Below, piece after piece: positions 13,360 to 32,000 of a stretch of DNA of 32,000 nucleotides. A program made the translations under genes and the position numbers. Each line of letters starts with the position of its first letter. Position 1 is the stretch's first letter. A model generated the notes under the pieces. That model did not search any database. It was not told the origin of the DNA and was given only the letters and a program-made list of their open reading frames with translations. The stretch covers positions 5,160,001-5,192,000 of the forward strand of contig NZ_CP042911.1 in the NCBI RefSeq assembly GCF_008065095.1. The letters are read 5' to 3'. Source of the DNA: Gemmata obscuriglobus (GTDB lineage Bacteria; Planctomycetota; Planctomycetia; Gemmatales; Gemmataceae).

Positions 13360-13367
13360 CTGCCTTG

Positions 13368-17765: not shown

Positions 17766-17782
17766 TCGGAAGCCCTCCGGTG

Positions 17783-17873: not shown

Positions 17874-17917
17874 GCGGCTACGGATCGCGGTCGGGCAACA
17901 CGCTGCTTGGTTCGGCG

Positions 17918-18544: not shown

Positions 18545-18636
18545 GCCGAACAATGAAGCTCACCTGCACCGCCATCACCGGATGAGCAGTGCGTCACAAT
18601 GCCGATGGCGGTGTCAGGTGCAGCGCCGGGTTCGGC
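18545..18636 (-). repeat. attC-like site, class A
   Basis: Class A palindrome, 92 nt. Confidence 0.8.
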
Positions 18637-18642
18637 GTGTCT

Positions 18643-19242: not shown

Positions 19243-19258
19243 GCGCCGCGCCTTTGTT

Positions 19259-19350
19259 GCCGAACAATCAAGCTCACCTGCACCGCCACCATCGGATGAG
19301 CGGTGCGCCCCGAATCAGCGGGCGGTGTCAGGTGCAGCGCCGGGTTCGGC
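19259..19350 (-). repeat. attC-like site, class A
   Basis: Class A palindrome, 92 nt. Confidence 0.8.
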
Positions 19351-19971: not shown

Positions 19972-20007
19972 CTCGATTTCTGCTATCGCATGACTCCGCT
20001 TTCCGTG

Positions 20008-20098
20008 GCCGAACAAATAGCTCACCTGCACCGCCATCACCGGATGAGCGGTGCGTTCTCAATCAGCGGGCGGTGTCAGGTGCAGCGCCCGGTTCGGC
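20008..20098 (-). repeat. attC-like site, class A
   Basis: Class A palindrome with a variant 3' spacer (cagcgcccggttcggc). Confidence 0.8.
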
Positions 20099-20626: not shown

Positions 20627-20643
20627 CAGCTCGCCCTCTGGTT

Positions 20644-20735
20644 GCCGAACAATGAAGCTCACCTGCACCGCCATGATGCAGGCCGCAATGCGCTACGAAT
20701 CAGATGGCGGTGTCAGGTGCAGCGCCGGGTTCGGC
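20644..20735 (-). repeat. attC-like site, class A
   Basis: Class A palindrome, 92 nt. Confidence 0.8.
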
Positions 20736-20741
20736 CTGCCT

Positions 20742-21266
20742 TTACTGCGCCCCAAGTCCCTCGCCCCATTCGAAGTCGGGGGCGGTGAGCGGGGCCACCG
20801 GCTGGCCGGGGCTGGGCACCCGCATGTGGGCCGGCACCCGCTCCAACTCCTCCGGCGTGTACCCCGCCAGGAAGCTGAACCCCTTGAACGCGGCCGGATC
20901 GAACCGCACCAAAGCAGACGGGTATGCCCCGGCCGCGCACCGCCCGGCGATCTCGCGGACCAACTCGTGCCGCTCGCGGTCCCACCCGCCGGCCGGCTCG
21001 CTCCCGTACTCGTGCACCGGCGAGTTCCGCCAGAAGATGAGCAGCGCCGTGCCCTGGTCGCACAGCCGATGGTCGAGCAACCGCCGCCACTCGGCAACGC
21101 CCTGGGCCGGGTGGCACTCGGAGGCGTGAAGGAACAGTTCTTCGGGCGATGCGAGGGCCGCGAACTGCCGCCACCACCGGGCGTCGAAGGTGCCCTCGTC
21201 CTCGTCGTCCAAGTGCCCGTCCTTCAGCCACGCGACCCGCTTTCGCTGTTCTGGCGACAACGTCAT
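20742..21266 (-). CDS. hypothetical cassette protein (174 aa), DUF4274-like
   Basis: ORF track 20742..21266. ATG follows AGAGG, 17 nt after attC 21283-21372. WWRQFAALASPEELFLHASECHP...RLLDHRLCDQGTALLIFW resembles the DUF4274 pattern (from memory, weak). It has its own stop. Confidence 0.7.
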   Translation of the reverse strand: MTLSPEQRKRVAWLKDGHLDDEDEGTFDARWWRQFAALASPEELFLHASECHPAQGVAEWRRLLDHRLCDQGTALLIFWRNSPVHEYGSEPAGGWDRERHELVREIAGRCAAGAYPSALVRFDPAAFKGFSFLAGYTPEELERVPAHMRVPSPGQPVAPLTAPDFEWGEGLGAQ

Positions 21267-21282
21267 CCCCGCGCCTCTAGTT

Positions 21283-21372
21283 GCCGAACAGAAAGCTCAC
21301 CTGCACCGCCAAGATACAGTGAGCACTACAACGGCGGCGGATGGCGGTGTCAGGTGCAGCGCCGGGTTCGGC
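21283..21372 (-). repeat. attC-like site, class A (minor loop type)
   Basis: Class A stems with the minor loop (aagatacagtgagcactacaacggcggcggat). Confidence 0.8.
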
Positions 21373-21810
21373 TTCTGCGCGGGCCGTTGCGGTTCCGCGG
21401 AGCCCGCGCTCGTACCGCGCATCCGCGGAGCCACCACCGACCCGCACCACCGTGTCGCGGCCCACCGGTGGCCGCCCAACACCGCACCTCGCGGCGATGA
21501 GCCGCGCCAGACACCCACGGGCACCACGCGGAGCACCACCGACCCCACCCGCCGTGTCCCGATGCACCGCCGGCCACACCCAACCGCCACCTCGCGGCGG
21601 TGAGCCGCGCCAGACCCGATCGGCACCACGCGAAGCACCACCGACCTGAACCGCCGTGTCCGCACCCGCTCCCGGCCGCGCCCACCGCACCTCGCGGCGG
21701 TGAGCCGCGCCCGCCACCCACGGGCACCACGCGGAGCCCGACGCGCGGGCGTCACCTTCGCGGACCACACGCCCACCGCCGCCGCACGCGCGATCATGCA
21801 CCGTTGGGTT
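21373..21810 (-). repeat. ORF-less repeat cassette family R (3 units)
   Basis: The gRYgagccgcgcc motif starts at about 21496, 21599 and 21699, giving a period of 100-103 nt. Confidence 0.8.
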
Positions 21811-21900
21811 GCCGAACAAACAGCTCACCTGCACCGCCCGTCCCGATGAGCGATGCCTCCCGAATCAGCCGGCGGTGTCAGGTGCAGCGCCGGGTTCGGC
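21811..21900 (-). repeat. attC-like site, class A
   Basis: Class A palindrome, 90 nt, with loop cgtcccgatgagcgatgcctcccgaatcagcc. Confidence 0.8.
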
Positions 21901-22236
21901 TTCTGCGCCCACCGTCGCGGTTCCGCGGAGCCCGCGCCCGCGCCGCGCATCCGCGGAGCCACCACCGACCCGCACCACCGTGCCGCGGCACACCGGTGGC
22001 CGCCCACCACCGACACCCGCGGCGGTGAGCCGCGCCCGCCAACCACGGGCACCACGCGGAGCACCACCGACCCGCACCACCGTGTCCCCACCCACACCGG
22101 GCCACGACCACCCGCACCTCGCGGCGGCGAGCCGCGCCAACCACCAGCAGGCCACACGCGGAGCCCGACACCCGGGGTTCACCACCGCGGACCACACGCC
22201 CACCGCCGCCCGCGCGCCCTGATGCACGCGAGGGTG
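21901..22236 (-). repeat. ORF-less repeat cassette family R (2 units, short tail)
   Basis: Same architecture. Confidence 0.8.
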
Positions 22237-22328
22237 GCCGAACAATCAAGCTCACCTGCACCGCCATCACACGATGAGCGGTGCGCCCCGAATCAGCGGG
22301 CGGTGTCAGGTGCAGCGCCGGGTTCGGC
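22237..22328 (-). repeat. attC-like site, class A
   Basis: Class A palindrome, 92 nt, same as 13268-13359. Confidence 0.8.
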
Positions 22329-22336
22329 CTGCCTTG

Positions 22337-22720
22337 CTACCCGCGAACCGCGTGCAGCCCAGTGATGCGGGTGACGACGCCCTCGGCGACCCGCCGCCCG
22401 CCCTCGTGGCAGTAGAACCGGGCGCCGGGGGCAATCCGGCCGCGATGCACCTCGGCCCGCATCTCATCCATCACGACCGTCATGCGGGCGGACAACTCCA
22501 CGCCTACCGGCAGTCCATGATCGGTCGCCAGGCTCTGTCCGTCAGCGGCGAAGAAGTCCGGCCAGATCATGTACAGGCTCGGTGGGGTTGGCCCGTCGTC
22601 GGCATAGGCGAAGTCCCACCGGATGCCGTTGAACGCCCGCGTCCGCCGCCCACCCTCCTCCGGGCCGTACACCCGGATGGCGGCCTCGAAGTCGTCGGGT
22701 GGGTAGAGACCTCCGCCCAT
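22337..22720 (-). CDS. hypothetical cassette protein family Y (127 aa), copy 2 of 2
   Basis: The protein is identical to 13368..13751, and the flanks are the same (attC 22237-22328 and class B attC 22738-22890). Confidence 0.7.
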   Translation of the reverse strand: MGGGLYPPDDFEAAIRVYGPEEGGRRTRAFNGIRWDFAYADDGPTPPSLYMIWPDFFAADGQSLATDHGLPVGVELSARMTVVMDEMRAEVHRGRIAPGARFYCHEGGRRVAEGVVTRITGLHAVRG

Positions 22721-22737
22721 CGGTGCGCCCTCCGGTT

Positions 22738-22890
22738 GCCGAACCAGGAGCTGAGCTGCAAGCCGCCCCTCTCAGGGCGGTCTCCCCTTGCTCCCGCGAC
22801 GGCTTGTCAGCTCCAGCGGGGGGGTCGGCCGACGGCCGCCTCCTTCCGCCAGAGGGTGAGTGAGCCTTGCAGCTCAGCTCCTGGTTCGGC
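22738..22890 (-). repeat. attC-like site, class B composite (153 nt)
   Basis: Built as 13769-13921, with the inner box ggtcggc. Confidence 0.7.
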
Positions 22891-23063
22891 CGCCGCCGGA
22901 TCCGCTCAGCCCACCGGGGACATCGCACGGCGGGAGAACACCATGCGACCTCAGGCCGCTCGGATCGGCGGGCCCTCGCCGGTCGCCTTCACCAGGGGGG
23001 AGGTGGCGACAACCTTACGACCGCCCGCCGATCCGCGGCGCTTGCAACCACCTCACGGCGGGT
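22891..23063 (-). repeat. ORF-less structured cassette S, copy 3 of 4
   Basis: Same element. It is followed directly by a second S unit. Confidence 0.7.
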
Positions 23064-23216
23064 GCCGAACCAGGAGCTGAGCTGCAAGCCGCCCCTCTCA
23101 GGGCGGTCTCCCCTTGCTCCCGCGACGGCTTGTCAGCTCCAGCGGGGGGTTCGGCCGACGGCCGCCTCCTTCCGCCAGAGGATGAGTGAGCCTTGCAGCT
23201 CAGCTCCTGGTTCGGC
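23064..23216 (-). repeat. attC-like site, class B composite (153 nt)
   Basis: Built as 16704-16856, with the inner box intact. Confidence 0.7.
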
Positions 23217-23389
23217 ACCCGCCGGATGAGCTCAGCCCACCGGGGACATCGCACGGCGGGAGATCACCATGCGACCTCAGGCCGCTCGGATCGGCGGGCC
23301 CTCGCCGGTCGCCTTCACCAGGGTGGAGGTGGCGACAACCTTACGACCGCCCGCCGATCCGCGGCGCTTGCAACCACCTCACGGCGGCG
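23217..23389 (-). repeat. ORF-less structured cassette S, copy 4 of 4
   Basis: Same element. Confidence 0.7.
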
Positions 23390-23480
23390 GCCGAACGAAC
23401 AGCTCACCTGCACCGCCATCACACGATGAGCGATGCGTCGCAGTATAGCGGGCGGTGTCAGGTGCAGCGCCGGGTTCGGC
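23390..23480 (-). repeat. attC-like site, class A
   Basis: Class A palindrome: gccgaac..cacctgcaccgcc|loop|ggcggtgTcaggtg..gttcggc. Confidence 0.8.
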
Positions 23481-23816
23481 TCGCGCACGTCCGCGCCGCG
23501 CATCCGCGGAAGCCCGCCCACCGGTGCGGGCGGGCGGAGCACCACCGACCCCGCGCGCCGTGTCCCGGCCCACCGAGGGCCACCCACCACCGCACCTCGC
23601 GGCGATGAGCCGCGCCGACCACCGGCGGGCACCACGCGGAGCACCACCGACCTGAACCGCCGTGTCCCAACGCATCGGAGGCCACGCCCAACCGCACCTC
23701 GCGGCGATGAGCCGCGCCAGCCACGATCGGTATCACGCGGAGCACGACGCGCGAGGTACACCCACGCGGACCACACCGTCAGCGCCGCCGCACCCGCGCT
23801 CCTGCACGCGAGGGTT
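23481..23816 (-). repeat. ORF-less repeat cassette family R (2 units)
   Basis: Same architecture. Confidence 0.8.
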
Positions 23817-23907
23817 GCCGAACATAAAGCTCACCTGCACCGCCATCACCGGATGAGCGGTGCGCCCCGAATCAGCGGGCGGTGTCAGGTGCAGCGCCGG
23901 GTTCGGC
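23817..23907 (-). repeat. attC-like site, class A
   Basis: Class A palindrome: gccgaac..cacctgcaccgcc|loop|ggcggtgTcaggtg..gttcggc. Confidence 0.8.
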
Positions 23908-24008
23908 CCTCGCGCCGGGACCGCGGACGCCGCGACCCACCGGCGGAGCGGCGCGACCAGCTCGGCGCGATGGCCCGCACCACCCACGCAGAACGGCGGA
24001 GCGGCACC

Positions 24009-24100
24009 GCCGAACGACCTAACTCACCTACCGTGGGGTGAGCGACACGGTAAGGAAGCCACACACTCAAAAGCGGCCCGGTGCAGCGCGTGGGACTTAC
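24009..24100 (-). repeat. decayed attC-like site
   Basis: A 92-nt stretch, gccgaac-gacct-aactcaccta...ggtgagcg...cggcccggtgcagcgcgtgggacttac. It keeps the 5' box, part of the arms and ggtgcagcgc, but the inner stem and the gttcggc box are lost. It sits exactly at the stop codon of CDS 24097..24405. Confidence 0.5.
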
Positions 24101-24405
24101 CGCCAAGCCAGCGGAAGCCAGCAGCCGAGTGCTAAAAGGGCTGCGAATCCGACCAAACCCCACTCGAACGCCGCCTCGGCCCAGCCCATCCGCGCTGCCC
24201 CCGGCCCCGGGGCGCGCAGCCAAGCGTGCCTCACTACCCAGGCTCCTGTGACCAGGATCGCGGCCGGGGCCGCCACACGCTGCCACGGTTCGTGCTCCGG
24301 GGAGAGCCACACATGCACCCCACCGGCCAACCCTATCAGCCACATCAGCAGCACCCCGGCGCGCAGCGCCCAACATTGACCCGGGGAGAGTTCCCGCTCC
24401 GCCAT
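24097..24405 (-). CDS. small membrane protein cassette (102 aa)
   Basis: ATG 24405 lies 8 nt after GGAG and 40 nt after attC 24445-24535. Hydrophobic segments are GVLLMWLIGLAGGVHVW and WGLVGFAALLALGCWLPL. The TAA stop overlaps the decayed attC 24009-24100. Confidence 0.55.
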   Translation of the reverse strand: MAERELSPGQCWALRAGVLLMWLIGLAGGVHVWLSPEHEPWQRVAAPAAILVTGAWVVRHAWLRAPGPGAARMGWAEAAFEWGLVGFAALLALGCWLPLAWR

Positions 24406-24444
24406 CACCGAGACTCCACGGAACTCCAATGCCGGGCTTCTTCC

Positions 24445-24535
24445 GCCGAACATAAAGCTCACCTGCACCGCCATCACCCGATGAGCGATGCGTCCCGAAT
24501 CAGATGGCGGTGTCAGGTGCAGCGCCGGGTTCGGC
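24445..24535 (-). repeat. attC-like site, class A
   Basis: Class A palindrome: gccgaac..cacctgcaccgcc|loop|ggcggtgTcaggtg..gttcggc. Confidence 0.8.
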
Positions 24536-24541
24536 GTGCCT

Positions 24542-25033
24542 TTACTCGGGCGGATGGCTGACCAGCTCGCGAAGTAGCGCCGCCTGTGCCGCCAACTCCG
24601 CAACCCGTGCTGCCTCGAACGCCTCGTCGTACCGCTCCGCATTGGCCTCGCCCGCGGCACATCCGACGGCCGATGCCGCGCAGGATGTGGCGGCCAGCAC
24701 GTTGGATGCCGAGCGGGGCCAGACCGACGACGCATCGACGGCGGCCGATGCCGCATACCCGCGAGCGTCCGGGGCCGAGTGACCGGGGAACGCTTCCTGG
24801 GCCTCGCCGCCCGCGACGGCAACTGCGGACGCCAACTCCGACACGCCGATACGCCCCGCCGCGAACCGCTCAGACGCGTCGACAGCGGCTCGGCAGCCTG
24901 GCGGGAGCAAGTGCCAGGCGCGGCGGACACACCCCGCCGCAAATAGCCGCAGTTCGCGCTGGTAGCGGTCGGCAGGCATCGCCCGTACCATCGCATCGGG
25001 ATCGAGACACGCCCACCAGTCTGAGGCTGTCAC
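24542..25033 (-). CDS. hypothetical alpha-helical cassette protein (163 aa), W-x-C-x-DP...RELRLFAAGCVRRAWHLL type
   Basis: GTG 25033 follows CGAGGG, 21 nt after attC 25054-25143. The N-terminal pattern ASDWWACLDPDAMVRAM..RELRLFAAGCVRRAWHLLPPGCRAAVDASERFAAG is common in planctomycete proteins. It has its own stop. Confidence 0.7.
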   Translation of the reverse strand: MTASDWWACLDPDAMVRAMPADRYQRELRLFAAGCVRRAWHLLPPGCRAAVDASERFAAGRIGVSELASAVAVAGGEAQEAFPGHSAPDARGYAASAAVDASSVWPRSASNVLAATSCAASAVGCAAGEANAERYDEAFEAARVAELAAQAALLRELVSHPPE

Positions 25034-25053
25034 CGCCGAAAAGCCCTCGGGTT

Positions 25054-25143
25054 GCCGAACATACAGCTCACCTGCACCGCCAGGATACAGTGAGCACCAC
25101 AACGGCGGCAGATGGCGGTGTCAGGTGCAGCGCCGGGTTCGGC
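25054..25143 (-). repeat. attC-like site, class A (minor loop type)
   Basis: Class A stems with the minor loop (aggatacagtgagcaccacaacggcggcagat). Identical to 25502-25591. Confidence 0.8.
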
Positions 25144-25501
25144 TCGCTCGCCTCCGCGGTTCCGAGCGACACGTCCAGCGCCGCGCATCCGCGGAGCCCG
25201 GGCCACCGGTGCGGCCGAGCGGAGCAGCACCGACCCGACGCGCCGTGCGCGGCCCATCGGAGGCCGGCCACCACCGCACCTCGCGGCGACGAGCCGCGCC
25301 CGCCCTGACGCGCGCCCCGCGGAGCACCACCGACCCGGACCGCCGTGTCCCCACCCGCCGACGGCCACGCCCAACCGCACCGCGCGGCGGCGAGCCGCGC
25401 CACACACCCACGGGCGCCACGCGGAGCGCCACACCACCGCCGGACGCCCCGCGGACCACACGCCCAGCTCTGCCGCACGCGCCCTCATGCACGCGATGGT
25501 A
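25144..25501 (-). repeat. ORF-less repeat cassette family R (2 units)
   Basis: Identical to 25592-25949. Confidence 0.8.
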
Positions 25502-25591
25502 GCCGAACATACAGCTCACCTGCACCGCCAGGATACAGTGAGCACCACAACGGCGGCAGATGGCGGTGTCAGGTGCAGCGCCGGGTTCGGC
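25502..25591 (-). repeat. attC-like site, class A (minor loop type)
   Basis: Identical to 25054-25143 (tandem duplication). Confidence 0.8.
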
Positions 25592-25949
25592 TCGCTCGCC
25601 TCCGCGGTTCCGAGCGACACGTCCAGCGCCGCGCATCCGCGGAGCCCGGGCCACCGGTGCGGCCGAGCGGAGCAGCACCGACCCGACGCGCCGTGCGCGG
25701 CCCATCGGAGGCCGGCCACCACCGCACCTCGCGGCGACGAGCCGCGCCCGCCCTGACGCGCGCCCCGCGGAGCACCACCGACCCGGACCGCCGTGTCCCC
25801 ACCCGCCGACGGCCACGCCCAACCGCACCGCGCGGCGGCGAGCCGCGCCACACACCCACGGGCGCCACGCGGAGCGCCACACCACCGCCGGACGCCCCGC
25901 GGACCACACGCCCAGCTCTGCCGCACGCGCCCTCATGCACGCGATGGTA
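25592..25949 (-). repeat. ORF-less repeat cassette family R (2 units)
   Basis: Identical to 25144-25501. Confidence 0.8.
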
Positions 25950-26040
25950 GCCGAACGAACAGCTCACCTGCACCGCCATCACACGATGAGCGGTGCGTCA
26001 CAATACAGCGGGCGGTGTCAGGTGCAGCGCCGGGTTCGGC
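25950..26040 (-). repeat. attC-like site, class A
   Basis: Class A palindrome: gccgaac..cacctgcaccgcc|loop|ggcggtgTcaggtg..gttcggc. Confidence 0.8.
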
Positions 26041-26396
26041 TCGCTGCCGTCCGCGGTTCCGGGCGACACGCCGAGCGCCGCGCATCTGCGGATGCCCGCG
26101 GCACCGGTGCGACCGGGCGGAGTGCTACCGACTCGATGCGCCGTGTCCCGGCCCATCGAGGGCCACGCCCACCGCTACACGCGGCGACGAGCCGCGCCCC
26201 TACCCACGGGCACCACGCGGAGCGCCACCGACCCGAACCGCCGTGTCCCCACACACCGCCGGCCACGCCCAACCGCACCTCGCGGCGACGAGCCGCGCCA
26301 GCACCGACCGGCACCACGCGAAGCCCGACACGCGAGACTCACCACCGCGGACCACACGCTCAGCGCCGCCGCACGCGCCCTCATGCCCTCGGGGTT
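26041..26396 (-). repeat. ORF-less repeat cassette family R (2 units)
   Basis: Same architecture. Confidence 0.8.
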
Positions 26397-26486
26397 GCCG
26401 AACATAAAGCTCACCTGCACCGCCATCACCGGATGAGCGGTGCGTCCAAATCAGATGGCGGTGTCAGGTGCAGCGCCGGGTTCGGC
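26397..26486 (-). repeat. attC-like site, class A
   Basis: Class A palindrome, 90 nt. Confidence 0.8.
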
Positions 26487-26750
26487 CTCTGCCGCTCGCA
26501 GGTGGAGGAAACTGCCGTCGGACGCAAGCTCCCGCACCCGCTGCCACACCTCGGCCCCGATGCCGACCAACACCGGCCCGGTGGCCTCCTCGCCCTCGCG
26601 GAACACGGCGACCCGATGGTTGATGGTCGGCCCGACGGCGCACCACGAGGTGCAGTTGTAGTTGGCCCCGCACGCCGGGCACCGCAGCAGGAAGCTGCCG
26701 TGCTGGACGGCGCTAACGAGCGGGCCATTGCATTGGACGCACGGAATCAT
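26451..26750 (-). CDS. zinc-ribbon miniprotein cassette (99 aa including attC tail)
   Basis: ATG 26750 lies 19 nt after attC 26769-26859. It has CVQCNG...CPACG pairs and ends AEPGAAPDTAI in attC 26397-26486. Confidence 0.6.
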   Translation of the reverse strand: MIPCVQCNGPLVSAVQHGSFLLRCPACGANYNCTSWCAVGPTINHRVAVFREGEEATGPVLVGIGAEVWQRVRELASDGSFLHLRAAEAEPGAAPDTAI

Positions 26751-26768
26751 CGCAGCGCCCTTCCGGTG

Positions 26769-26859
26769 GCCGAACGAACAGCTCACCTGCACCGCCATCA
26801 CCGGATGAGCGGTGCGTCCCAAACCCGATGGCGGTGTCAGGTGCAGCGCCGGGTTCGGC
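26769..26859 (-). repeat. attC-like site, class A
   Basis: Class A palindrome: gccgaac..cacctgcaccgcc|loop|ggcggtgTcaggtg..gttcggc. Confidence 0.8.
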
Positions 26860-26861
26860 TT

Positions 26862-27275
26862 CTATCGAGCTGCTGGGAAGTCCGAAAACGAAGCCGTCAC
26901 GAACACCAGCGCGCCGTCCGCGGTTGAGCGGAAGCCCAGCAGCATCGTACCCGTTGGCGTGTCAATTACGCCCAGGTGGTACACCAGTTCCTCGGAAAGC
27001 AGGTGATAACCACTGGCCCCATTCCGGACGACCGACACACGGTACCCACCGACCAGAGCCGGCTGATGTCGGAGGAGCCAATCGACTGTTCCCGCGTCCC
27101 CGCGGAGCAGCGGCTCGACGGCCAGCGCGGTGCGATCGGACGCGACAACCGCAGCGGCCACGCGCTCTGTTGCCGCGATGGCTTCAGGTGGGGCGGCGGA
27201 GCGCTGACGAACCGCCACGACGGCCACGACCGAGAGGGTGGTGGCAACCGCCAGGACCGCGACGCGGGATCGCAT
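26862..27275 (-). CDS. signal-anchored/secreted cassette protein (137 aa)
   Basis: ATG 27275 lies 7 nt after AGAGGG and 19 nt after variant attC 27294-27384. The N-terminus is MRSRVAVLAVATTLSVVAVVAV. Its own TAG is 2 nt before attC 26769-26859. Confidence 0.6.
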   Translation of the reverse strand: MRSRVAVLAVATTLSVVAVVAVRQRSAAPPEAIAATERVAAAVVASDRTALAVEPLLRGDAGTVDWLLRHQPALVGGYRVSVVRNGASGYHLLSEELVYHLGVIDTPTGTMLLGFRSTADGALVFVTASFSDFPAAR

Positions 27276-27293
27276 TCTTGCGCCCTCTGGGTT

Positions 27294-27384
27294 GCCGAAC
27301 ATAAAGCTCACCGGCCGCGGGACCACGCGACACGGTCGGGAAAGTACGTATTTGACCGCGGTCCGGTGCAGCGCCGGGTTCGGC
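27294..27384 (-). repeat. attC-like site, class A with covarying inner stems
   Basis: gccgaac-ataa-agctcaccgg-ccgcgg / loop / ccgcgg-T-ccggtg-C-agcgccgg-gttcggc. Both inner stems are replaced by compensatory sequences, while the boxes and both bulged bases are kept. Confidence 0.75.
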
Positions 27385-27511
27385 TTCTTCGCTCACCGTC
27401 GCGCATCTGCGTAGCCCGCGCCCGCATGGCGCATCCGCAGCGACCGCGCCCACCGCCGCGCATCCGCGGAGCGGGACCGGCACGCCGGTGTGAGTCCCCG
27501 GCCATAATAAC

Positions 27512-27778
27512 TCAGCCGCTCGGAGCAGCGAATGCACAGGTCCCACCCACCCTGACCTCGGCCACATCCGTGAGCGCGAAGTTCATGAACGCCCCAACCG
27601 GGATGGAACCCGCCGCGACAGTCAGGATCTCGGCAATGACATCGCCGCCGGCATCCGCGTGAGCCGTCGAGATGACCCGCACCCCATACGCCTCGCCGTC
27701 GTAGAAGCGGATCACTGCATCCGCGGATGAGCGATCTAACTCGTGCAGGAGAGATAAGAGGTTGCCGTCTATCGCCAC
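27512..27778 (-). CDS. hypothetical cassette protein (88 aa)
   Basis: ORF track 27512..27778. GTG lies 7 nt after GGAGG. Its own stop is followed by a 127-nt non-coding tail (27385-27511) that resembles the R-cassette tail. Confidence 0.55.
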   Translation of the reverse strand: MAIDGNLLSLLHELDRSSADAVIRFYDGEAYGVRVISTAHADAGGDVIAEILTVAAGSIPVGAFMNFALTDVAEVRVGGTCAFAAPSG

Positions 27779-27803
27779 CTTCGCGCCTCCGTCTCCTTCT
27801 GCC

Positions 27804-27894
27804 GCCGAACATAAAGCTCACCTGCACCGCCATCACCGGATGAGCGGTGCGCCCCCAATCAGCCGGCGGTGTCAGGTGCAGCGCCGGGTTCGGC
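27804..27894 (-). repeat. attC-like site, class A
   Basis: Class A palindrome, differing by 1 nt from 28860-28950. Confidence 0.8.
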
Positions 27895-28302
27895 GTTTGG
27901 GGATAACCCGGCGGCCAGGAACGCGGGGAACGAAGGGGCCATCTCGTGGATGCCGCCAAAGTCGTGATCCTCGACCAGCACTCGCCCGGACGAGAGCTCG
28001 ATGCCGAACGGGTTGCCGCCGCCATCCCAACCGATGATGAACACTCCTCGCATGTGCCAGAACTCGTTGTCCGCTCGGAACTGGCGGTGCGAATCGGCCA
28101 ACTCGGGCAGCCCGTCGATCCACTCGCCGTCACCGCCCACGCGCCCGCCGCACACCGTCAGGTACTCGCGGAACGCTGGCGGGATCGTCCCGAACTCGAC
28201 CTCGAACGCCCGCAGGTCGCCCTCGGCGGCCGGCGGGTGGCGTTCCTCCTCAGGGCAGGCGTGCCACGCCGCGACAAGGAGTTGCCGCAGTCGCTCGTTC
28301 AC
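27859..28302 (-). CDS. SMI1/KNR4 (SUKH-1) family cassette protein (147 aa), copy 1 of 2
   Basis: EGDLRAFEVEFGTIPPAFREYLTVCGG...FIIGWDGGGNPFGIELSSGRVLVEDHDFG is a classic SMI1/KNR4 pattern. GTG 28302 lies 7 nt after AGAGGG, whereas the track start TTG 28308 is too close to the SD. It ends AEPGAAPDTAG in attC 27804-27894. Confidence 0.85.
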   Translation of the reverse strand: MNERLRQLLVAAWHACPEEERHPPAAEGDLRAFEVEFGTIPPAFREYLTVCGGRVGGDGEWIDGLPELADSHRQFRADNEFWHMRGVFIIGWDGGGNPFGIELSSGRVLVEDHDFGGIHEMAPSFPAFLAAGLSPNAEPGAAPDTAG

Positions 28303-28318
28303 ATGCAAGCCCTCTGTG

Positions 28319-28409
28319 GCCGAACATAAAGCTCACCTGCACCGCCATCATCGGACAAGCGATGCGTTCCAGATCAGCGGGCGGTGTCAGGTGCAGCGCC
28401 GGGTTCGGC
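28319..28409 (-). repeat. attC-like site, class A
   Basis: Class A palindrome: gccgaac..cacctgcaccgcc|loop|ggcggtgTcaggtg..gttcggc. Confidence 0.8.
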
Positions 28410-28439
28410 TTGCCTTCGGGCACTGTGACTCCGTAAGCA

Positions 28440-28808
28440 TCAAGTGGAACCGGACAACTCGGCGTGGGTCAGCACCCACGGGCACTCCATGCTCGCGTCG
28501 TGACGGAGCGTGAGCCGGTATGGGCCGCCGGGCAACGTGTCGCTCTCGGTCGTGCGCTCGGCGGTTGCGACCACGAAGCCGTCGCCGACTTCGACGACGC
28601 GCCCCGTGAGGATGGCCCATCCCCCGTCCTCTGTCCACACCTGCACCTTGACGCGGTGCCGCACGGCCGGCGGTTCGCCTGGCAGTAGCCACTCGCCGCG
28701 CTGCTCGGGGCGCACTTGGAGGATGTGGGCGACGAGGTCGTCCCTATGGAACCCCTCGACGATTCCGCACGCCATCGTTGGGGGTGGGTCGGCATCAACG
28801 TCGCTCAT
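28440..28808 (-). CDS. hypothetical cassette protein (122 aa)
   Basis: ORF track 28440..28808. ATG follows TGAGG, with a 51-nt leader after attC 28860-28950. It has its own stop. Confidence 0.65.
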   Translation of the reverse strand: MSDVDADPPPTMACGIVEGFHRDDLVAHILQVRPEQRGEWLLPGEPPAVRHRVKVQVWTEDGGWAILTGRVVEVGDGFVVATAERTTESDTLPGGPYRLTLRHDASMECPWVLTHAELSGST

Positions 28809-28859
28809 GGACGACCTCAGGAAGCGAAATCTGCCGGTTCACTCCCGCAGGCTTCCGCC

Positions 28860-28950
28860 GCCGAACATAAAGCTCACCTGCACCGCCCTCACCGGATGAG
28901 CGGTGCGCCCCCAATCAGCCGGCGGTGTCAGGTGCAGCGCCGGGTTCGGC
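28860..28950 (-). repeat. attC-like site, class A
   Basis: Class A palindrome, differing by 1 nt from 27804-27894. Confidence 0.8.
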
Positions 28951-29358
28951 GTTTGGGGATAACCCGGCGGCCAGGAACGCGGGGAACGAAGGGGCCATCT
29001 CGTGGATGCCGCCAAAGTCGTGATCCTCGACCAGCACTCGCCCGGACGAGAGCTCGATGCCGAACGGGTTGCCGCCGCCATCCCAACCGATGATGAACAC
29101 TCCTCGCATGTGCCAGAACTCGTTGTCCGCTCGGAACTGGCGGTGCGAATCGGCCAACTCGGGCAGCCCGTCGATCCACTCGCCGTCACCGCCCACGCGC
29201 CCGCCGCACACCGTCAGGTACTCGCGGAACGCTGGCGGGATCGTCCCGAACTCGACCTCGAACGCCCGCAGGTCGCCCTCGGCGGCCGGCGGGTGGCGTT
29301 CCTCCTCAGGGCAGGCGTGCCACGCCGCGACAAGGAGTTGCCGCAGTCGCTCGTTCAC
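28915..29358 (-). CDS. SMI1/KNR4 (SUKH-1) family cassette protein (147 aa), copy 2 of 2
   Basis: The protein is identical to 27859..28302, shifted by 1056 nt. It is part of the duplicated attC+cassette block 28860-29374. Confidence 0.85.
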   Translation of the reverse strand: MNERLRQLLVAAWHACPEEERHPPAAEGDLRAFEVEFGTIPPAFREYLTVCGGRVGGDGEWIDGLPELADSHRQFRADNEFWHMRGVFIIGWDGGGNPFGIELSSGRVLVEDHDFGGIHEMAPSFPAFLAAGLSPNAEPGAAPDTAG

Positions 29359-29374
29359 ATGCAAGCCCTCTGTG

Positions 29375-29465
29375 GCCGAACATAAAGCTCACCTGCACCG
29401 CCATCATCGGATGAGCGGCGGGGTCCGAATCACATGGCGGTGTCAGGTGCAGCGCCGGGTTCGGC
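29375..29465 (-). repeat. attC-like site, class A
   Basis: Class A palindrome: gccgaac..cacctgcaccgcc|loop|ggcggtgTcaggtg..gttcggc. Confidence 0.8.
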
Positions 29466-29732
29466 TTCTTGCGGCGCCTCTGCCAGACCGCGCATCTGGT
29501 ATCGACGAGGCCCCTCGACGGTGACCGCGGCCCCGCCTTCGCAGATGACATGCGTGCCGTAGGCCGACTCGACAACCGTCAGCGACGGCACCGCGTCCAA
29601 CCCGACAGCGGTAACGACGCACTCCTCGCCGGGTCGAAGGGCGACGCTGAAGTCGCTTGGGACGACCTCCACTAACCGGTCGGCCCCGCTGTCAGCGTCG
29701 TTGCACACACACAGGCGAACGACGAGGCTCAT
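29430..29732 (-). CDS. hypothetical cassette protein (100 aa including attC tail)
   Basis: ATG 29732 lies 9 nt after AGAGGG and 19 nt after attC 29751-29841. It is in frame with track ORF 29430..29858 and ends AEPGAAPDTAM in attC 29375-29465. Confidence 0.6.
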   Translation of the reverse strand: MSLVVRLCVCNDADSGADRLVEVVPSDFSVALRPGEECVVTAVGLDAVPSLTVVESAYGTHVICEGGAAVTVEGPRRYQMRGLAEAPQEAEPGAAPDTAM

Positions 29733-29750
29733 CCGATGCGTCCCTCTGGT

Positions 29751-29841
29751 GCCGAACATAAAGCTCACCTGCACCGCCATCACACGATGAGCAGTGCGTC
29801 CCAAATCAGCGGGCGGTGTCAGGTGCAGCGCCGGGTTCGGC
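29751..29841 (-). repeat. attC-like site, class A
   Basis: Class A palindrome: gccgaac..cacctgcaccgcc|loop|ggcggtgTcaggtg..gttcggc. Confidence 0.8.
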
Positions 29842-30249
29842 GTCTGGGGCGCCGCCAACCACCTGCCGCCGGTACGCCTGCCACGCCGTGTAAGCCGCCC
29901 CCAACTCCGAAGGCTCGAAGAACCCGCTGTCGGTGCCAGGGGCGAGTGCCCTCAGCCGCAACTCGCGGAGTATGTCGGCGATGACAAACCGCGCCTCCTC
30001 GGCGCCGCGAACGTGGAAGGCGAAGCTGTCCAGTACTTCCGCGGGGCCGATGTTGACCTCGATGCTGAACCCCGGCCCGTCGATCACGCCCCACGTCGGG
30101 TCGGCGAAGTTGGTCGCCGGTACCGCTCGGAGGATGCCGGCCACGATGTCCGCTCGCCGGCCGATGGGCTGTGGGGCGAAGTCGTCCGGGATCTCCGCCA
30201 CCGTGCGGGTGTCGAGCGGCAGGTCTTGGACAAACACGTCGAAGCTCAC
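29806..30249 (-). CDS. hypothetical cassette protein (147 aa including attC tail)
   Basis: ORF track 29806..30249. GTG follows GGAGGG, 14 nt after class C attC 30263-30352. It ends AEPGAAPDTAR in attC 29751-29841. Confidence 0.7.
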   Translation of the reverse strand: MSFDVFVQDLPLDTRTVAEIPDDFAPQPIGRRADIVAGILRAVPATNFADPTWGVIDGPGFSIEVNIGPAEVLDSFAFHVRGAEEARFVIADILRELRLRALAPGTDSGFFEPSELGAAYTAWQAYRRQVVGGAPDAEPGAAPDTAR

Positions 30250-30262
30250 CGCGCCCTCCGCC

Positions 30263-30409
30263 GCCGCATGTGGAGCTCACCTGCTCGCGCGCCCTGGAGG
30301 GGGCGATCCCCGAGTTCTGCATGCGCGAGTCTGGTGCAGCGGAGGGTTCGGCCCCGCGCCCCACCACGCCGAACATGGGCTGCCCGTGAAGGTGAGCTCC
30401 ACATTCGGC
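30263..30409 (-). repeat. attC-like site, class C composite (147 nt) with mutated R' box
   Basis: Duplicate of 18259-18405 (offset 12004). Confidence 0.65.
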
Positions 30410-30548
30410 CCCGCTCATGCAGCCCGGCAGATGAGCTACACCGATCCGCTCGCGCCTCGGGGGTGGGCGCGGGTCGGGCCAGCCACTTGGGATGGGGGGC
30501 TGGCTACCCTATCGACATCGCGCCCACCCCCGTGGGTCTCGGCGCGGG
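30410..30548 (-). repeat. ORF-less structured cassette T, copy 2 of 2
   Basis: Duplicate of 18406-18544. Confidence 0.65.
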
Positions 30549-30639
30549 GCCGAACAATGAGCTCACCTGCACCGCCATCACCGGATGAGCGGTGCGTCCC
30601 AAGTCCGATGGCGGTGTCAGGTGCAGCGCTGGGTTCGGC
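30549..30639 (-). repeat. attC-like site, class A
   Basis: Class A palindrome with a variant 3' spacer (cagcgctgggttcggc). Confidence 0.8.
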
Positions 30640-30895
30640 TCGATGCCCTCGGCGTTTCCGGGTTGCACGCCGAGCGCCGCGCCTCCGCGGAGCCCGCGGC
30701 ACCGGTGCGTGCGGGCGGAGCATCACCGCCTCGATGCGCCGTGTCGCGGCCCACCGAGGGCCACCCACCACTGCACCTCGCGGCGATGAGCCGCGCCAGC
30801 ACCGACCGGCACCAGGCGGAGCCCGACACACGGGTTTCACCACCGCGGGCCACACGCCTACTGCCGCCGCACGCGCGCTCCTGCGACCTCGGGTT
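30640..30895 (-). repeat. ORF-less repeat cassette family R (1 unit)
   Basis: A single unit, 256 nt in total. Confidence 0.8.
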
Positions 30896-30985
30896 GCCGA
30901 ACAAATAGCTCACCTGCACCGCCCGTCCCGATGAGCGATGCGTCCCAAGTCAGACGGCGGTGTCAGGTGCAGCGCCGGGTTCGGC
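30896..30985 (-). repeat. attC-like site, class A
   Basis: Class A palindrome, 90 nt, with a loop related to 21811-21900. Confidence 0.8.
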
Positions 30986-30992
30986 GTCCGGG

Positions 30993-31592
30993 CTACCCAA
31001 GCCGCTGAGCCATCCCAGGCATCGACCGGACCCACTCGACACCCCCGATCCGGGCGTTCTCGGCTGGGTCGCGCCGGCACTTCTCGTACACGCCCTGCCA
31101 ATAGTCGAGTCGGGCCTCGTGCCCGTCCACCGCCCCGAACACCCAAGCGGAGAAAGACTCGGGCGGCCGCTCCTCATCCGTGATTGGCTCCGGGTCGCCG
31201 TCGAACCCGCAATGCGTCAGCGGGTCGTCCGCCGCGAGGTGTGCGGCGAACACCATCCCGCTGTGGCTGTGGAACGCGAACACCATGTGCGGCCCCGCCG
31301 ACCAGTGGACGACCGGCGGCGGGTCGCCCTCGATCATGGTGGCGAGATCGGTCAGGAACACCTCGCCGTCGATCGTGGCCTCCAGGAAGCAAGCTAGTGG
31401 CAGGGAGGCGTAGAGCTCCCGCACAGCCGCCGGAATCTGGAACCCATGCCGGGCCTCGAACTCCGCAACCCCGGAATCGGTGCCGAGGGCGCGGAACCAG
31501 TCCGGCACCCTGTCGTGAGCGGCCAGTACCTCCGGGTAACGGAGGTAGCCGCGGACTTCAGCGAGGTCGAGAGCACGCTGCAAGTACCGCAT
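30993..31592 (-). CDS. SUKH/SMI1-KNR4-like cassette protein (199 aa)
   Basis: ORF track 30993..31592. ATG lies 5 nt after GGAGG. VAEFEARHGFQIPAAVRELYASLPL...MVFAFHSHSGMVFAAHL fits the SUKH layout, less clearly than 27859..28302. It has its own stop. Confidence 0.7.
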   Translation of the reverse strand: MRYLQRALDLAEVRGYLRYPEVLAAHDRVPDWFRALGTDSGVAEFEARHGFQIPAAVRELYASLPLACFLEATIDGEVFLTDLATMIEGDPPPVVHWSAGPHMVFAFHSHSGMVFAAHLAADDPLTHCGFDGDPEPITDEERPPESFSAWVFGAVDGHEARLDYWQGVYEKCRRDPAENARIGGVEWVRSMPGMAQRLG

Positions 31593-31605
31593 CCGCGCCT
31601 CCGCC

Positions 31606-31696
31606 GCCGAATAACAAGCTCACCTGCACCGCCATCGCCGAGTGAGCGGTGCGCTCCAAGTCAGCGGGCGGTGTCAGGTGCAGCGCCGGGTTCGGC
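31606..31696 (-). repeat. attC-like site, class A with variant R' box
   Basis: The 5' box on + is gccgaaT, so the top-strand R' reads ATTCGGC instead of GTTCGGC. The rest is class A. Confidence 0.7.
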
Positions 31697-32000
31697 TCGC
31701 TCACGTCCGCGCCGCGCATCCGCGGATGCCCGCGCCACCGATGCGGCCACGCGGAGCACCGCCGACCCGGAGCACCGTGTCGCCGCACGTCGGAGGCCAC
31801 CCACCACCCCCACTCGCGGCGACGAGCCGCGCCGACCACCGACCGGTGTTGGCGGAGCGCCACCGACCCGAACCGCCGTGTCCCCACCCGCCGCCCGCCA
31901 CGCCCAACCGCACCTCGCGGCGACGAGCCGCGCCCGCGCCCACCGGCACTCTGCGGAGCCCGACGCGCGGGGTTCACCCACGCGGACCACACGCACACCG
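31697..32000 (-). repeat. ORF-less repeat cassette family R (at least 2 units, truncated by window end)
   Basis: The tail and two units are visible. The head lies beyond 32000. Confidence 0.75.

What the first reader, a model, noticed from the sequence alone, without database searches (positions are those of the whole stretch)
27804..29465. The cargo looks like an integron-organised poly-immunity locus (five SMI1/KNR4-SUKH cassettes plus other small immunity-like proteins), with no toxin, integrase or resistance gene
Seen in the sequence: the SMI1/KNR4-type cassettes are 15543..16230 (disrupted), 19315..19971, 27859..28302, 28915..29358 and 30993..31592. There are also DUF2314-like (581..1051) and DUF4274-like (20742..21266) proteins. 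Two related alpha-helical proteins of the W-x-C-x-DP / RELRLFAAGCVRRAW type are present (18643..19242 and 24542..25033). A TIGR02996-domain protein (10161..10727) and many 75-190 aa orphans complete the set. Nothing in the window is large enough to be a polymorphic toxin or a multi-gene defence system. Established knowledge: SUKH/SMI1-KNR4 proteins are the archetypal immunity proteins of polymorphic toxin systems. They are known to accumulate in toxin-less tandem 'polyimmunity' loci. Inference: here that kind of locus is physically organised as attC-bounded cassettes. It would act as a recombinase-shufflable bank of orphan immunity genes. I am not aware of this link between integrons and contact-dependent or polymorphic-toxin immunity having been described.
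Basis: partly seen in the sequence, partly recalled or inferred. Interest (0 to 1): 0.7.

Follow-up and report, generated by a model that had tools for sequence, protein, structure and literature searches.

The report
Orphan immunity cassettes in Gemmata integron arrays
The window is part of a very large integron-type gene-cassette array in the chromosome of the planctomycete Gemmata obscuriglobus; predicted anti-toxin "immunity" genes of the SUKH family are its commonest recognisable cargo and have been copied and shuffled between arrays, but they are a minority among mostly unknown and non-coding cassettes.

Summary
The attC-bounded cassette organisation is real. About 60 co-oriented ~91-nt attC sites fold canonically, and the window lies in the Gemmata obscuriglobus chromosome. 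The flagged region holds two copies (514/515 nt identical) of a promoterless SUKH-1 cassette flanking an unrelated cassette.

Of the five claimed SUKH cassettes, three intact ones and one disrupted one pass Pfam's cut-off. The fifth (30993..31592) is unproven. DUF2314 and DUF4274 are hints only. An Imm1 cassette was missed. TIGR02996 is confirmed. The window contains no toxin, integrase or defence gene.

"Poly-immunity locus" overstates the case. SUKH is the top recognisable family, in about 12 of 86 coding cassettes across three arrays on this chromosome. Most cassettes are unclassified and about a third are non-coding repeat cassettes.

The flagged SUKH cassette occurs at least five times in five different contexts, which shows cassette-level shuffling.

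The novelty is partial:
- The SUKH expansion in G. obscuriglobus was reported in 2011.
- Recombinase-linked polyimmunity loci were noted in 2012.
- Integron-like orphan-immunity arrays (rAID-1) were described in 2019.

What is new is that true attC cassettes carry these genes. The immunity function itself is inferred, not shown.

The parts
1..32000 (-). Segment of a chromosomal attC cassette array of Gemmata obscuriglobus. It corresponds to about CP025958.1:2,828,374-2,860,373, with the cassette top strand on the window's minus strand. The array continues beyond both ends of the window.
   Evidence: 60 co-oriented attC sites and 59 cassettes. Source contig. An organism name is attached to the protein at 18643..19242.
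29375..29465 (-). attC site upstream of the first SUKH cassette. It belongs to the cassette at 29381..29756.
28866..29380 (-). Cassette c06 (515 bp). It is promoterless. The SUKH-1 ORF runs 28915..29364 (or starts at 29358 as in the GenBank call), and its stop codon lies inside its own attC.
   Evidence: PF09346, 43.4 bits. Cassette limits. No sigma-70-like promoter.
28860..28950 (-). attC of cassette c06
28325..28865 (-). Cassette c07. ORF 28440..28808 (122 aa), no recognisable family.
28319..28409 (-). attC of cassette c07
27810..28324 (-). Cassette c08, a duplicate of c06 (514/515 nt identical). SUKH-1 ORF 27859..28308.
27804..27894 (-). attC of cassette c08
19315..19971 (-). SUKH-1 cassette gene (218 aa)
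   Evidence: PF09346, 31.7 bits
15543..16236 (-). Disrupted SUKH-1 cassette gene. The N-terminal half is at 15919..16236. The C-terminal-like half is at 15543..15800 in another frame.
   Evidence: PF09346, 34.2 bits for the N-terminal half. Frame analysis.
30993..31592 (-). 199-aa cassette protein from a small family. It shares only the SUKH N-terminal motif, so SUKH membership is unproven.
11807..12181 (-). Imm1-family cassette gene (124 aa)
   Evidence: PF14430, 26.4 bits against a cut-off of 22.4
10161..10727 (-). Cassette protein with a TIGR02996 domain
   Evidence: 65.4 bits
581..1051 (-). 156-aa cassette protein with only a marginal DUF2314 (Imm34) hint. The last ~19 residues are encoded by the attC.
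20742..21266 (-). 174-aa cassette protein with a sub-threshold DUF4274 hit
   Evidence: 14.7 bits against a cut-off of 27
18643..19242 (-). 199-aa helical protein (GobsT_43990) from an unannotated family
24542..25033 (-). 163-aa ORF with a weak coding signature. It shares a 40-residue motif with the protein at 18643..19242.

Best explanation
The window is a stretch of one of at least three large attC cassette arrays in the Gemmata obscuriglobus chromosome. They are integron-type arrays with no integrase in the sampled DNA.

The flagged region is three promoterless cassettes. Two are near-identical copies of a SUKH-1 gene, and they flank an unrelated gene. Each cassette ends in a ~91-nt attC.

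Shown:
- These are genuine attC cassettes.
- The SUKH assignment holds for three intact genes and one disrupted gene in the window.
- Cassettes, including this SUKH cassette, have been duplicated and re-inserted one at a time into different positions and different arrays.

Inferred:
- The SUKH, Imm1 and Barstar cassettes are orphan immunity proteins. They would bind and neutralise nuclease or deaminase toxins delivered by competing bacteria.
- An IntI-type recombinase acting on the folded bottom strand of attC excises, captures, amplifies and reorders them.
- Expression depends on read-through transcription and position in the array.

The arrays as a whole are general cassette banks. Immunity is their most visible theme, not their only one.
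For: ATTC ANATOMY
- 7-bp R''/R' stem, a 5-nt unpaired spacer, and a 16-bp L stem with two extrahelical bases on the L'' side of the bottom strand.
- The 23 base pairs are kept in 54 sites. One divergent site preserves four pairs by double changes.
- All sites are co-oriented with the genes, and ORF stop codons lie inside the attC.

LINEAGE AND INTEGRASE
- The same attC arm occurs in arrays of other Gemmata/Gemmataceae genomes.
- In four of those loci it follows an integron integrase: TIGR02249, 450 bits against a cut-off of 265.

FAMILY HITS ABOVE CURATED CUT-OFFS
- SUKH-1 and Imm1.
- Barstar and further SUKH genes in the upstream flank.
- SMI1_KNR4 is the top family in every census: 4 of 149 ORFs and 6 of 38 ORFs.

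MOBILITY
- c06/c08 are 514/515 identical, and identity falls to background at the crossover point.
- The same SUKH cassette occurs 5 times in 3 arrays at 99.3-100% protein identity.
- 17 multi-copy cassette families almost always have different neighbours.

EXPRESSION SIGNALS
- No promoter-like or terminator-like sites in the flagged region.

LITERATURE
- SUKH proteins as immunity proteins, and the expansion of 21 paralogs in G. obscuriglobus (PMC3113570).
- Orphan immunity arrays protect experimentally in Bacteroidales (10.1101/471110).
Against: - No cognate toxin was identified in the window, its flanks or the genome, and the genome could not be surveyed here.
- About 80% of coding cassettes have no family, and about a third of cassettes are non-coding.
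- The SUKH count is inflated by five copies of one cassette.
- The SUKH share in other Gemmata arrays is only about 2-3%.
- No intI or intI remnant was found in the ~82 kb sampled from this chromosome, although L058 includes the start of an array. No G. obscuriglobus IntI appeared among the 120 best IntI homologues.
- Promoterless cassettes deep in an array may be silent.
- SUKH proteins also have non-immunity roles, such as Smi1/Knr4 and Syd.
Confidence: 0.6

Rival explanations
1. This is a generic chromosomal cassette bank with no functional theme. SUKH genes are simply abundant small genes in Planctomycetes that happened to be captured. Their high count reflects neutral or selfish amplification of a few cassettes, and most are silent and without adaptive role.
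For: - Most cassettes are unclassified or non-coding.
- Five of about 12 SUKH cassettes are copies of one cassette.
- One SUKH cassette is a pseudogene.
- Non-coding cassettes are amplified just as much.
- There are no promoters.
- The SUKH share is low in other Gemmata arrays.
Against: - SUKH is the top family in three independent censuses.
- About seven distinct SUKH sequence types are present, not one.
- Other immunity families co-occur: Imm1, Barstar, SuFu, Imm22 and ankyrin.
- About 82 kb (<1% of the genome) holds at least 12 SUKH genes, against 21 reported for the whole genome.
Confidence: 0.27
2. The cassettes form a biobank of anti-phage defence systems, as shown for Vibrio sedentary chromosomal integrons. 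On this view the SUKH proteins act in phage defence or counter-defence rather than against bacterial toxins.
For: - Sedentary chromosomal integrons are reported to hold many compact defence systems (10.1101/2024.07.02.601686).
- Many cassettes here have unknown function.
Against: - PADLOC gave 0 hits for 32 window proteins at E <= 0.01.
- No nuclease, NTPase or other effector domain appears in any Pfam scan of the window.
- Cassettes are single small genes of 75-220 aa.
Confidence: 0.06
3. The SUKH and other small proteins are antitoxin-like partners of toxins encoded within the array. They would act as toxin-antitoxin modules that stabilise the array, as in Vibrio superintegrons, rather than as immunity to incoming toxins.
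For: TA cassettes are common stabilisers of large chromosomal integrons. This rests on established knowledge and on a remark in PMC3710099.
Against: - Each SUKH cassette contains a single ORF.
- No RelE, ParE, HigB, Doc, PIN or HEPN-type toxin was detected in the window.
- The neighbours of the SUKH cassette differ in each of its five copies, so there is no conserved partner.
Confidence: 0.05
4. The repeats are not attC sites but another interspersed repeat (REP/MITE-like), so the array is not integron-related.
For: - No integrase was found in the sampled G. obscuriglobus DNA.
- Rfam has no match.
Against: - The sites show canonical attC architecture with extrahelical bases and strand asymmetry.
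- Orientation and spacing are strictly one gene per unit.
- Duplications are cassette-precise.
- A TIGR02249 integron integrase lies directly upstream of the same repeat in four related genomes.
Confidence: 0.02

Closest known systems
Sedentary chromosomal integrons and CALIN elements (e.g. the Vibrio cholerae superintegron; IntegronFinder classes, Cury et al. 2016, PMC4889954)
   Same: - Tens to hundreds of promoterless single-gene cassettes.
- Highly homogeneous, lineage-specific attC sites.
- Mostly genes of unknown function.
- Duplicated cassettes and IS insertions.
- Arrays without an adjacent integrase are a recognised class (CALIN, up to 114 attC sites).
   Different: - The host is a planctomycete with 70% GC.
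- There are at least three separate arrays on one chromosome, with no intI found in the sampled DNA.
- In related Gemmataceae, intI is co-oriented with the cassettes.
- No TA modules were detected.
- SUKH is the top cargo family.
- A third of the cassettes belong to one non-coding repeat family.
Polyimmunity loci of polymorphic toxin systems (Zhang et al. 2012, PMC3482391; SUKH arrays, Zhang et al. 2011, PMC3113570)
   Same: - Toxin-less clusters with several SUKH paralogs plus other Imm families (Imm1, Barstar, SuFu, ankyrin).
- Content is variable between relatives.
- Recombinases were suggested to drive accumulation.
- G. obscuriglobus was named as a SUKH expansion.
   Different: - Here the immunity genes are interspersed among many unrelated and non-coding cassettes.
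- Each is bounded by an attC site, a structure not noted in those papers.
rAID-1, recombinase-associated acquired interbacterial defence clusters of Bacteroidales (Ross et al. 2019, bioRxiv 10.1101/471110)
   Same: - Co-oriented arrays of up to 31 small orphan immunity genes.
- Repetitive intergenic sequences.
- A tyrosine recombinase at the head of the array.
- A structure suggesting active gene acquisition.
- The authors themselves call these 'hallmarks of integrons'.
   Different: - rAID-1 uses a XerD-family recombinase restricted to Bacteroidales, with its own repeats and low GC.
- Its immunity function is experimentally validated.
- Here the sites are canonical attC, and relatives carry true IntI (TIGR02249).
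- Immunity genes are a minority here, and their function is untested.
Orphan T6SS immunity gene arrays of Vibrio cholerae (Kirchberger et al. 2017, PMC5361080)
   Same: Accumulation of orphan immunity genes by successive displacement. The authors compare this explicitly with integron cassette insertion.
   Different: - Those arrays lie in T6SS auxiliary clusters next to effectors.
- They have no attC sites or integrase.
- They change slowly.
Sedentary chromosomal integrons as biobanks of anti-phage defence (Darracq et al. 2024, bioRxiv 10.1101/2024.07.02.601686)
   Same: The idea that unknown cassettes of large chromosomal integrons store conflict-related genes that can be reshuffled.
   Different: The conflict is of a different kind: phage versus bacterial toxins. 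No PADLOC family is detected here.

Membership tests
attC recombination site | Imperfect palindrome with R''/R' boxes (RYYYAAC ... GTTRRRY) that pair | tested here: met
   GCCGAAC ... GTTCGGC forms a 7-bp stem that is invariant in 54 of 54 sites.
attC recombination site | Unpaired central spacer, plus an L''/L' stem with extrahelical bases on one strand that mark the recombinogenic bottom strand | tested here: met
   A 5-nt spacer and a 16-bp L stem with two single-base bulges on the L'' side of the window's + strand.
attC recombination site | Variable terminal loop, with structure rather than sequence conserved | tested here: met
   The loop of about 33 nt is variable. The divergent site 27294-27384 keeps four pairs by double changes. 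The arms are too conserved to show more covariation.
attC recombination site | Recombined by an integron integrase | not testable with these tools
   Only indirect evidence: cassette-precise duplicates and shuffled neighbours.
Complete integron | intI gene (tyrosine recombinase with the IntI-specific insertion) adjacent to the array | tested here: not met
   tblastn with a Gemmataceae IntI finds nothing in the window, L001, L058 or L059. No G. obscuriglobus protein is among the top 120 IntI homologues. The feature is met in relatives L038, L020, L003 and L004. The upstream end of the window's own array was not reached.
Complete integron | attI site and Pc promoter | not tested
   The array head is not in the available sequence.
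CALIN (cluster of attC sites lacking an integron integrase) | At least 2 attC sites with no intI nearby | tested here: met
   Met for L058, whose array starts about 1 kb after unrelated genes with no intI within 5 kb. It is provisional for the window's array because its head was not seen.
SUKH-1 / SMI1_KNR4 (PF09346) | Profile match above the curated cut-off (25.4 bits) | tested here: met
   28915..29364 and 27859..28308 score 43.4 bits. 19315..19971 scores 31.7 bits. 15919..16236 scores 34.2 bits.
SUKH-1 / SMI1_KNR4 (PF09346), for 30993..31592 | Profile match above the cut-off, or a SUKH fold | tested here: inconclusive
   The protein scores 15 bits. 7 of 40 relatives hit weakly. hhalign gives 47% probability over 24 residues. 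Foldseek finds no PDB match for a pLDDT-97 model.
Polymorphic-toxin immunity protein (functional class) | Binds and neutralises a cognate toxin, or has a toxin gene adjacent in at least some relatives | not tested
   No toxin is found in the window or its flanks. The claim rests on family-level literature (PMC3113570).
Polyimmunity locus (Zhang et al. 2012) | A cluster made up predominantly of diverse immunity genes without a toxin | tested here: not met
   Several immunity families are present and no toxin is. However, immunity-type genes make up only about 14-17% of coding cassettes and are interspersed with unrelated and non-coding cassettes.
rAID-1 (Ross et al. 2019) | A 5' XerD-like recombinase >44% identical to BF9343_RS08045, low-GC co-oriented genes, and a Bacteroidales host | tested here: not met
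   The host is a planctomycete, GC is 70%, and the recombinase in relatives is IntI (TIGR02249), not the rAID XerD type. The relationship is an analogy only.
Imm1 (PF14430) | Profile match above the cut-off (22.4 bits) | tested here: met
   11807..12181 scores 26.4 bits, E = 1.3e-5. The margin is modest.
DUF2314 / Imm34 (PF10077), for 581..1051 | Profile match above the cut-off | tested here: not met
   The protein gives no hit. Homologues are unannotated. 3 of 33 relatives hit at E >= 0.046. There is no fold match.
DUF4274 (PF14096), for 20742..21266 | Profile match above the cut-off (27 bits) | tested here: not met
   14.7 bits over 21 residues.
TIGR02996 domain, for 10161..10727 | Profile match above the cut-off (29.05 bits) | tested here: met
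   65.4 bits, residues 3-46.
Known anti-phage defence systems (PADLOC) | Match to any PADLOC model | tested here: not met
   0 of 32 window proteins match at E <= 0.01.

The most novel reading that the evidence does not exclude
In Gemmata and related Planctomycetes, true integron cassettes are a main vehicle for acquiring, amplifying and exchanging orphan immunity genes against interbacterial toxins. The long-noted SUKH expansion of G. obscuriglobus would then be largely a product of IntI/attC recombination. On this reading interbacterial immunity joins antibiotic resistance and phage defence as a major adaptive function of integrons. It would also be a convergent counterpart of the Bacteroidales rAID system, built on a different recombinase.
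Probability: 0.3. Interest if true: 0.65.

Novelty: new variant of a known kind. Interest (0 to 1): 0.45.

Why it matters
What the hundreds of unknown cassettes in large chromosomal integrons do is a long-standing question. Phage defence was recently proposed as one answer. This locus suggests a second, testable answer: stored immunity against toxins from competing bacteria.

It also gives a mechanistic explanation, cassette capture and amplification, for the unusually large SUKH family reported in G. obscuriglobus in 2011.

It links three literatures that have developed separately: integrons, polyimmunity loci and acquired interbacterial defence.

The organism is culturable, so transcription, cassette excision and competition phenotypes can be tested directly.

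Tried and rejected
- Rfam at gathering threshold and tRNA scans of the window found nothing.
- Look-ups of three proteins found no record, because the gene calls differ or the protein is not indexed: 581..1051, 1252..1569 and P0241. As a result the window's downstream flank was not obtained.
- The upstream head of the window's array could not be reached. L001 stops 9.6 kb beyond the window and is still array. Further walking was blocked by tool restrictions and by the exhausted homologue searches.
- The IntI homologue search did not return a G. obscuriglobus protein. My recollection that an intI has been reported for this species could not be verified in the held literature.
- The single genome-collection scan did not return G. 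obscuriglobus itself. A genome-wide toxin survey was therefore impossible.
- Supplements of the two Aravind-lab papers are not held or contain no Gemmata entries.
- The context of a Stieleria homologue of the 18643..19242 family showed no toxin.
- Sequence searches of the PDB were uninformative for the flagged SUKH protein, the c01 family and the c59 family.
- Fold searches for c01 and c59 gave no significant match.
- The anti-phage reading was rejected for lack of any PADLOC hit.
- The TA-module reading was rejected because cassettes hold single genes and their neighbours vary.
- A consensus RNA structure for the 102-nt repeat units gave only a 6-bp hairpin.
- My first ORF filter wrongly discarded ORFs that start upstream of the cassette boundary. 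This was corrected.
Full report
WHAT THE WINDOW IS

The window is about 70% G+C, with C-rich skew on the + strand. A repeat search found about 58 copies of a conserved unit spaced 320-1500 bp apart.

Read on the minus strand, each unit is GCCGAAC-CCGGCGCTGCACCTGAC ... loop ... GGTGCAGGTGAGCT-nnnn-GTTCGGC. The stop codons of the upstream ORFs fall inside it.

A pattern search found 64 left arms on the minus strand and none on the plus strand. Sixty complete sites, mostly 91 nt, delimit 59 cassettes of 286-1153 bp.

Folded as single-stranded DNA, the sites give the textbook attC shape:
- a 7-bp R''/R' stem;
- a 5-nt unpaired spacer;
- an L''/L' stem broken by two single extrahelical bases on the L'' side of the window's + strand, which is therefore the bottom strand;
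- a variable loop.

Mean folding energy is about -26 kcal/mol. In an alignment of 54 sites all 23 pairs are kept. The one divergent site (27294-27384) preserves four pairs through double changes. Rfam and tRNA scans were empty.

SOURCE AND RELATIVES

The protein at 30993..31592 is encoded on CP025958.1 (GCA_003149495.1, 8,998,893 bp) and on a draft contig of GCA_000171775.1. The protein at 18643..19242 is named GobsT_43990 of Gemmata obscuriglobus.

The window corresponds to about 2.828-2.860 Mb of that chromosome, reverse-complemented. The array continues at least 9.6 kb upstream, with Barstar, ribosomal protein S21, DUF6959 and two more SUKH genes there.

The exact 24-nt attC arm occurs in cassette arrays of G. 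algarum, Gemmata sp. SMAG_U3706, Gemmata sp. IIL30 and other Gemmataceae.

I used an IntI1 sequence recalled from memory as a probe only. It found ORFs in four of these loci. Two of those ORFs were then confirmed as integron integrases: TIGR02249 at 450 and 399 bits against a cut-off of 265. In all four loci intI lies upstream of the attC array and is co-oriented with it.

No intI or remnant was found by tblastn in the window, L001, L058 or L059. No G. obscuriglobus protein appeared among the best 120 IntI homologues.

THE CARGO

Codon-position GC separates real genes (about 0.72/0.50/0.87) from non-coding DNA. About 35 cassettes carry a gene on the minus strand, and about 20 show no coding signal.

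Pfam and NCBIfam scans gave the following:
- SUKH-1 above cut-off for 28915..29364 and its twin 27859..28308 (43.4 bits), for 19315..19971 (31.7 bits), and for 15919..16236 (34.2 bits).
- Imm1 for 11807..12181 (26.4 against 22.4).
- TIGR02996 for 10161..10727 (65.4 against 29).
- Only sub-threshold hits for 30993..31592 (SUKH, 15 bits) and 20742..21266 (DUF4274, 14.7 bits).
- Nothing for 581..1051, 18643..19242 or 24542..25033.

The cassette at 15543..16236 is a pseudogene. Its SUKH N-terminal and C-terminal halves are in different frames, separated by about 120 nt containing stops.

The doubtful fifth SUKH (c01, 30993..31592) belongs to a small family of 63 representatives among 1.84 billion proteins. 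The tests gave:
- 7 of 40 members weakly hit SMI1_KNR4.
- hhalign against the confirmed SUKH cassettes aligns only the 24-residue N-terminal motif, at 47% probability.
- A pLDDT-97 model has no significant PDB neighbour.

For 581..1051 (c59), homologues are unannotated. Only 3 of 33 give marginal DUF2314 hits. The model (pLDDT 88) has no fold match.

The two helical proteins share only 40 residues, E = 3e-4.

PADLOC found nothing in 32 window proteins.

IS IMMUNITY A THEME?

A census of 149 non-redundant cassette ORFs from the upstream flank and other Gemmata arrays put SMI1_KNR4 first, with 4 members. There were single SuFu and Imm22 hits, and most ORFs matched nothing.

A look-up of the protein at 3705..4136 then revealed two further arrays on the same chromosome:
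- one at about 3.61 Mb (L058, at least 25 attC sites, including the start of an array and two IS elements);
- one at about 6.66 Mb (L059, at least 44 attC sites).

In these two arrays, 6 of 38 cassette ORFs are SMI1_KNR4. There is also an ankyrin-repeat protein and a DUF1877 protein.

Altogether about 12 of about 86 coding cassettes sampled from G. obscuriglobus are SUKH, representing about seven sequence types. They sit in about 82 kb, which is under 1% of the genome. Zhang et al. 2011 reported 21 SUKH paralogs for the whole genome. So a large part of that expansion is cassette-borne.

Immunity-type genes nevertheless remain a minority of the cargo.

EVIDENCE FOR SHUFFLING

The two SUKH cassettes of the flagged region are 514/515 nt identical. 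Identity drops to background immediately beyond the crossover point. Cassettes 13 and 14 are 448/448 identical with equally sharp edges.

The same SUKH cassette occurs five times: twice in the window, twice in L058 and once in L059, at 99.3-100% protein identity.

Clustering all cassettes at >=95% identity over >=90% of their length gave 17 multi-copy families. Their copies almost always have different upstream and downstream neighbours. This is what cassette-by-cassette site-specific recombination predicts, and block duplication does not predict it.

The flagged region has no sigma-70-like promoter or intrinsic terminator. That fits promoterless cassettes, although planctomycete promoters may differ from this consensus.

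Cassette content is barely shared with other species. Only the cassette at 26451..26750 has a 97% identical copy in G. algarum.

LITERATURE

No paper in the held library links integron cassettes with SMI1/SUKH or polymorphic-toxin immunity. The concept, however, is not new:
- Zhang et al. 2011 named G. obscuriglobus as the largest SUKH expansion and proposed that supernumerary copies protect against non-self toxins.
- Zhang et al. 2012 described polyimmunity loci and noted adjacent XerC/D recombinases that might drive accumulation.
- Kirchberger et al. 2017 compared orphan T6SS immunity arrays with integrons.
- Ross et al. 2019 described rAID-1: a XerD-like recombinase, up to 31 orphan immunity genes, and repeats 'reminiscent of integrons'. 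They showed that it protects.
- Ghaly et al. 2024 mention 'immunity proteins' in passing among cassette-encoded predicted effectors.
- Large attC arrays without an integrase (CALIN) are a recognised class.

VERDICT

What is new is that true attC cassettes, not merely integron-like arrays, carry, amplify and shuffle SUKH and other immunity-type genes in a planctomycete.

The immunity function, the toxins it would counter, the expression of the cassettes and the location of an active integrase all remain untested.

Noticed in passing
window, e.g. 3154-3602, 2705-3153, 2257-2704, 6326-8081, 25060-26402, 21289-22242: About 20 of the 59 cassettes are ~425-450 bp, show no coding signature, and carry 2-3 tandem ~102-nt units. 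There are 43 units, all on the cassette top strand, and they are G-rich. They share a conserved core hairpin CGCGGC-TCGT-GCCGCG. This paralogous family of non-coding cassettes makes up a third of the array, and Rfam has no match.
   Followed up: partly
window 13860, 16795, 22829, 23155 (within 326-nt repeats, e.g. 22733-23396): A second attC-like type (GCCGA[A/C]CCCCCCGCTGGAGCTGAC ... ) lies in four ~300-nt repeats that are 98% identical. It subdivides the long cassettes c18, c29 and c34, so the true cassette count is slightly higher than 59.
   Followed up: no
window, C-termini of ORFs such as 28915..29364, 19315..19971, 581..1051, 8131..8607, 26451..26750: At least 13 cassette ORFs read into their own attC and share an attC-encoded C-terminal tail, AEPGAAPDTA(R/G/I/M). 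Homologues of 581..1051 elsewhere are about 19 residues shorter.
   Followed up: partly
L058 (CP025958.1:3,607,750-3,628,181) and L059 (6,655,345-6,675,776): The same chromosome carries at least two more arrays of the same attC type, far from the window's array. L058 contains two DDE transposase genes inside the array, which might have split an ancestral array.
   Followed up: partly
window 27810-29380 and L058 ~8100-9950: In both arrays the two copies of the SUKH cassette flank a single intervening cassette (SUKH-X-SUKH), but X differs between the two arrays.
   Followed up: no
window 12369..12824, 10840..11295, 4252..4707: A 151-aa protein with no recognisable family is encoded by three identical cassettes. 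Another unknown, 127 aa with a weak EF-Tu domain-3-like hit of 24.6 bits, is present twice (22337..22720 and 13368..13751).
   Followed up: no
L001 7444-7698; L059 3912-4166: Cassettes encode a ribosomal protein S21 homologue (PF01165). Two members also appeared in the census of other arrays. This is an unusual housekeeping-type cargo for an integron cassette.
   Followed up: no
L058 1-4031 (minus strand): A giant gene (annotated as 1831 aa) with an N-terminal phage Mu portal domain (103.7 bits) abuts the start of the L058 array. Its C-terminal part lies outside the available sequence.
   Followed up: partly
L038, L020, L003, L004: In related Gemmataceae the integron integrase is co-oriented with the cassette array rather than divergent as in class 1 integrons.
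   Followed up: partly
L004 (Alcaligenaceae MAG), L019 (beta-proteobacterium MAG), L056 (Deltaproteobacteria MAG): The exact 24-nt Gemmata-type attC arm also occurs in MAGs labelled as non-Planctomycetes, and in L004 it sits next to an IntI. This could be a binning error or cross-phylum transfer of cassettes.
   Followed up: no
window 26451..26750 vs L008 52-393 (Gemmata algarum): One cassette protein (99 aa, Cys-rich, zinc-ribbon-like) is 97% identical between G. obscuriglobus and G. algarum, whereas almost no other cassette is shared. This suggests recent exchange of that cassette.
   Followed up: no
window 30263-30352 and 18259-18348: Two identical atypical attC-like sites (79 nt, no GTT R' box) close two identical 286-bp cassettes that have no ORF.
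   Followed up: no
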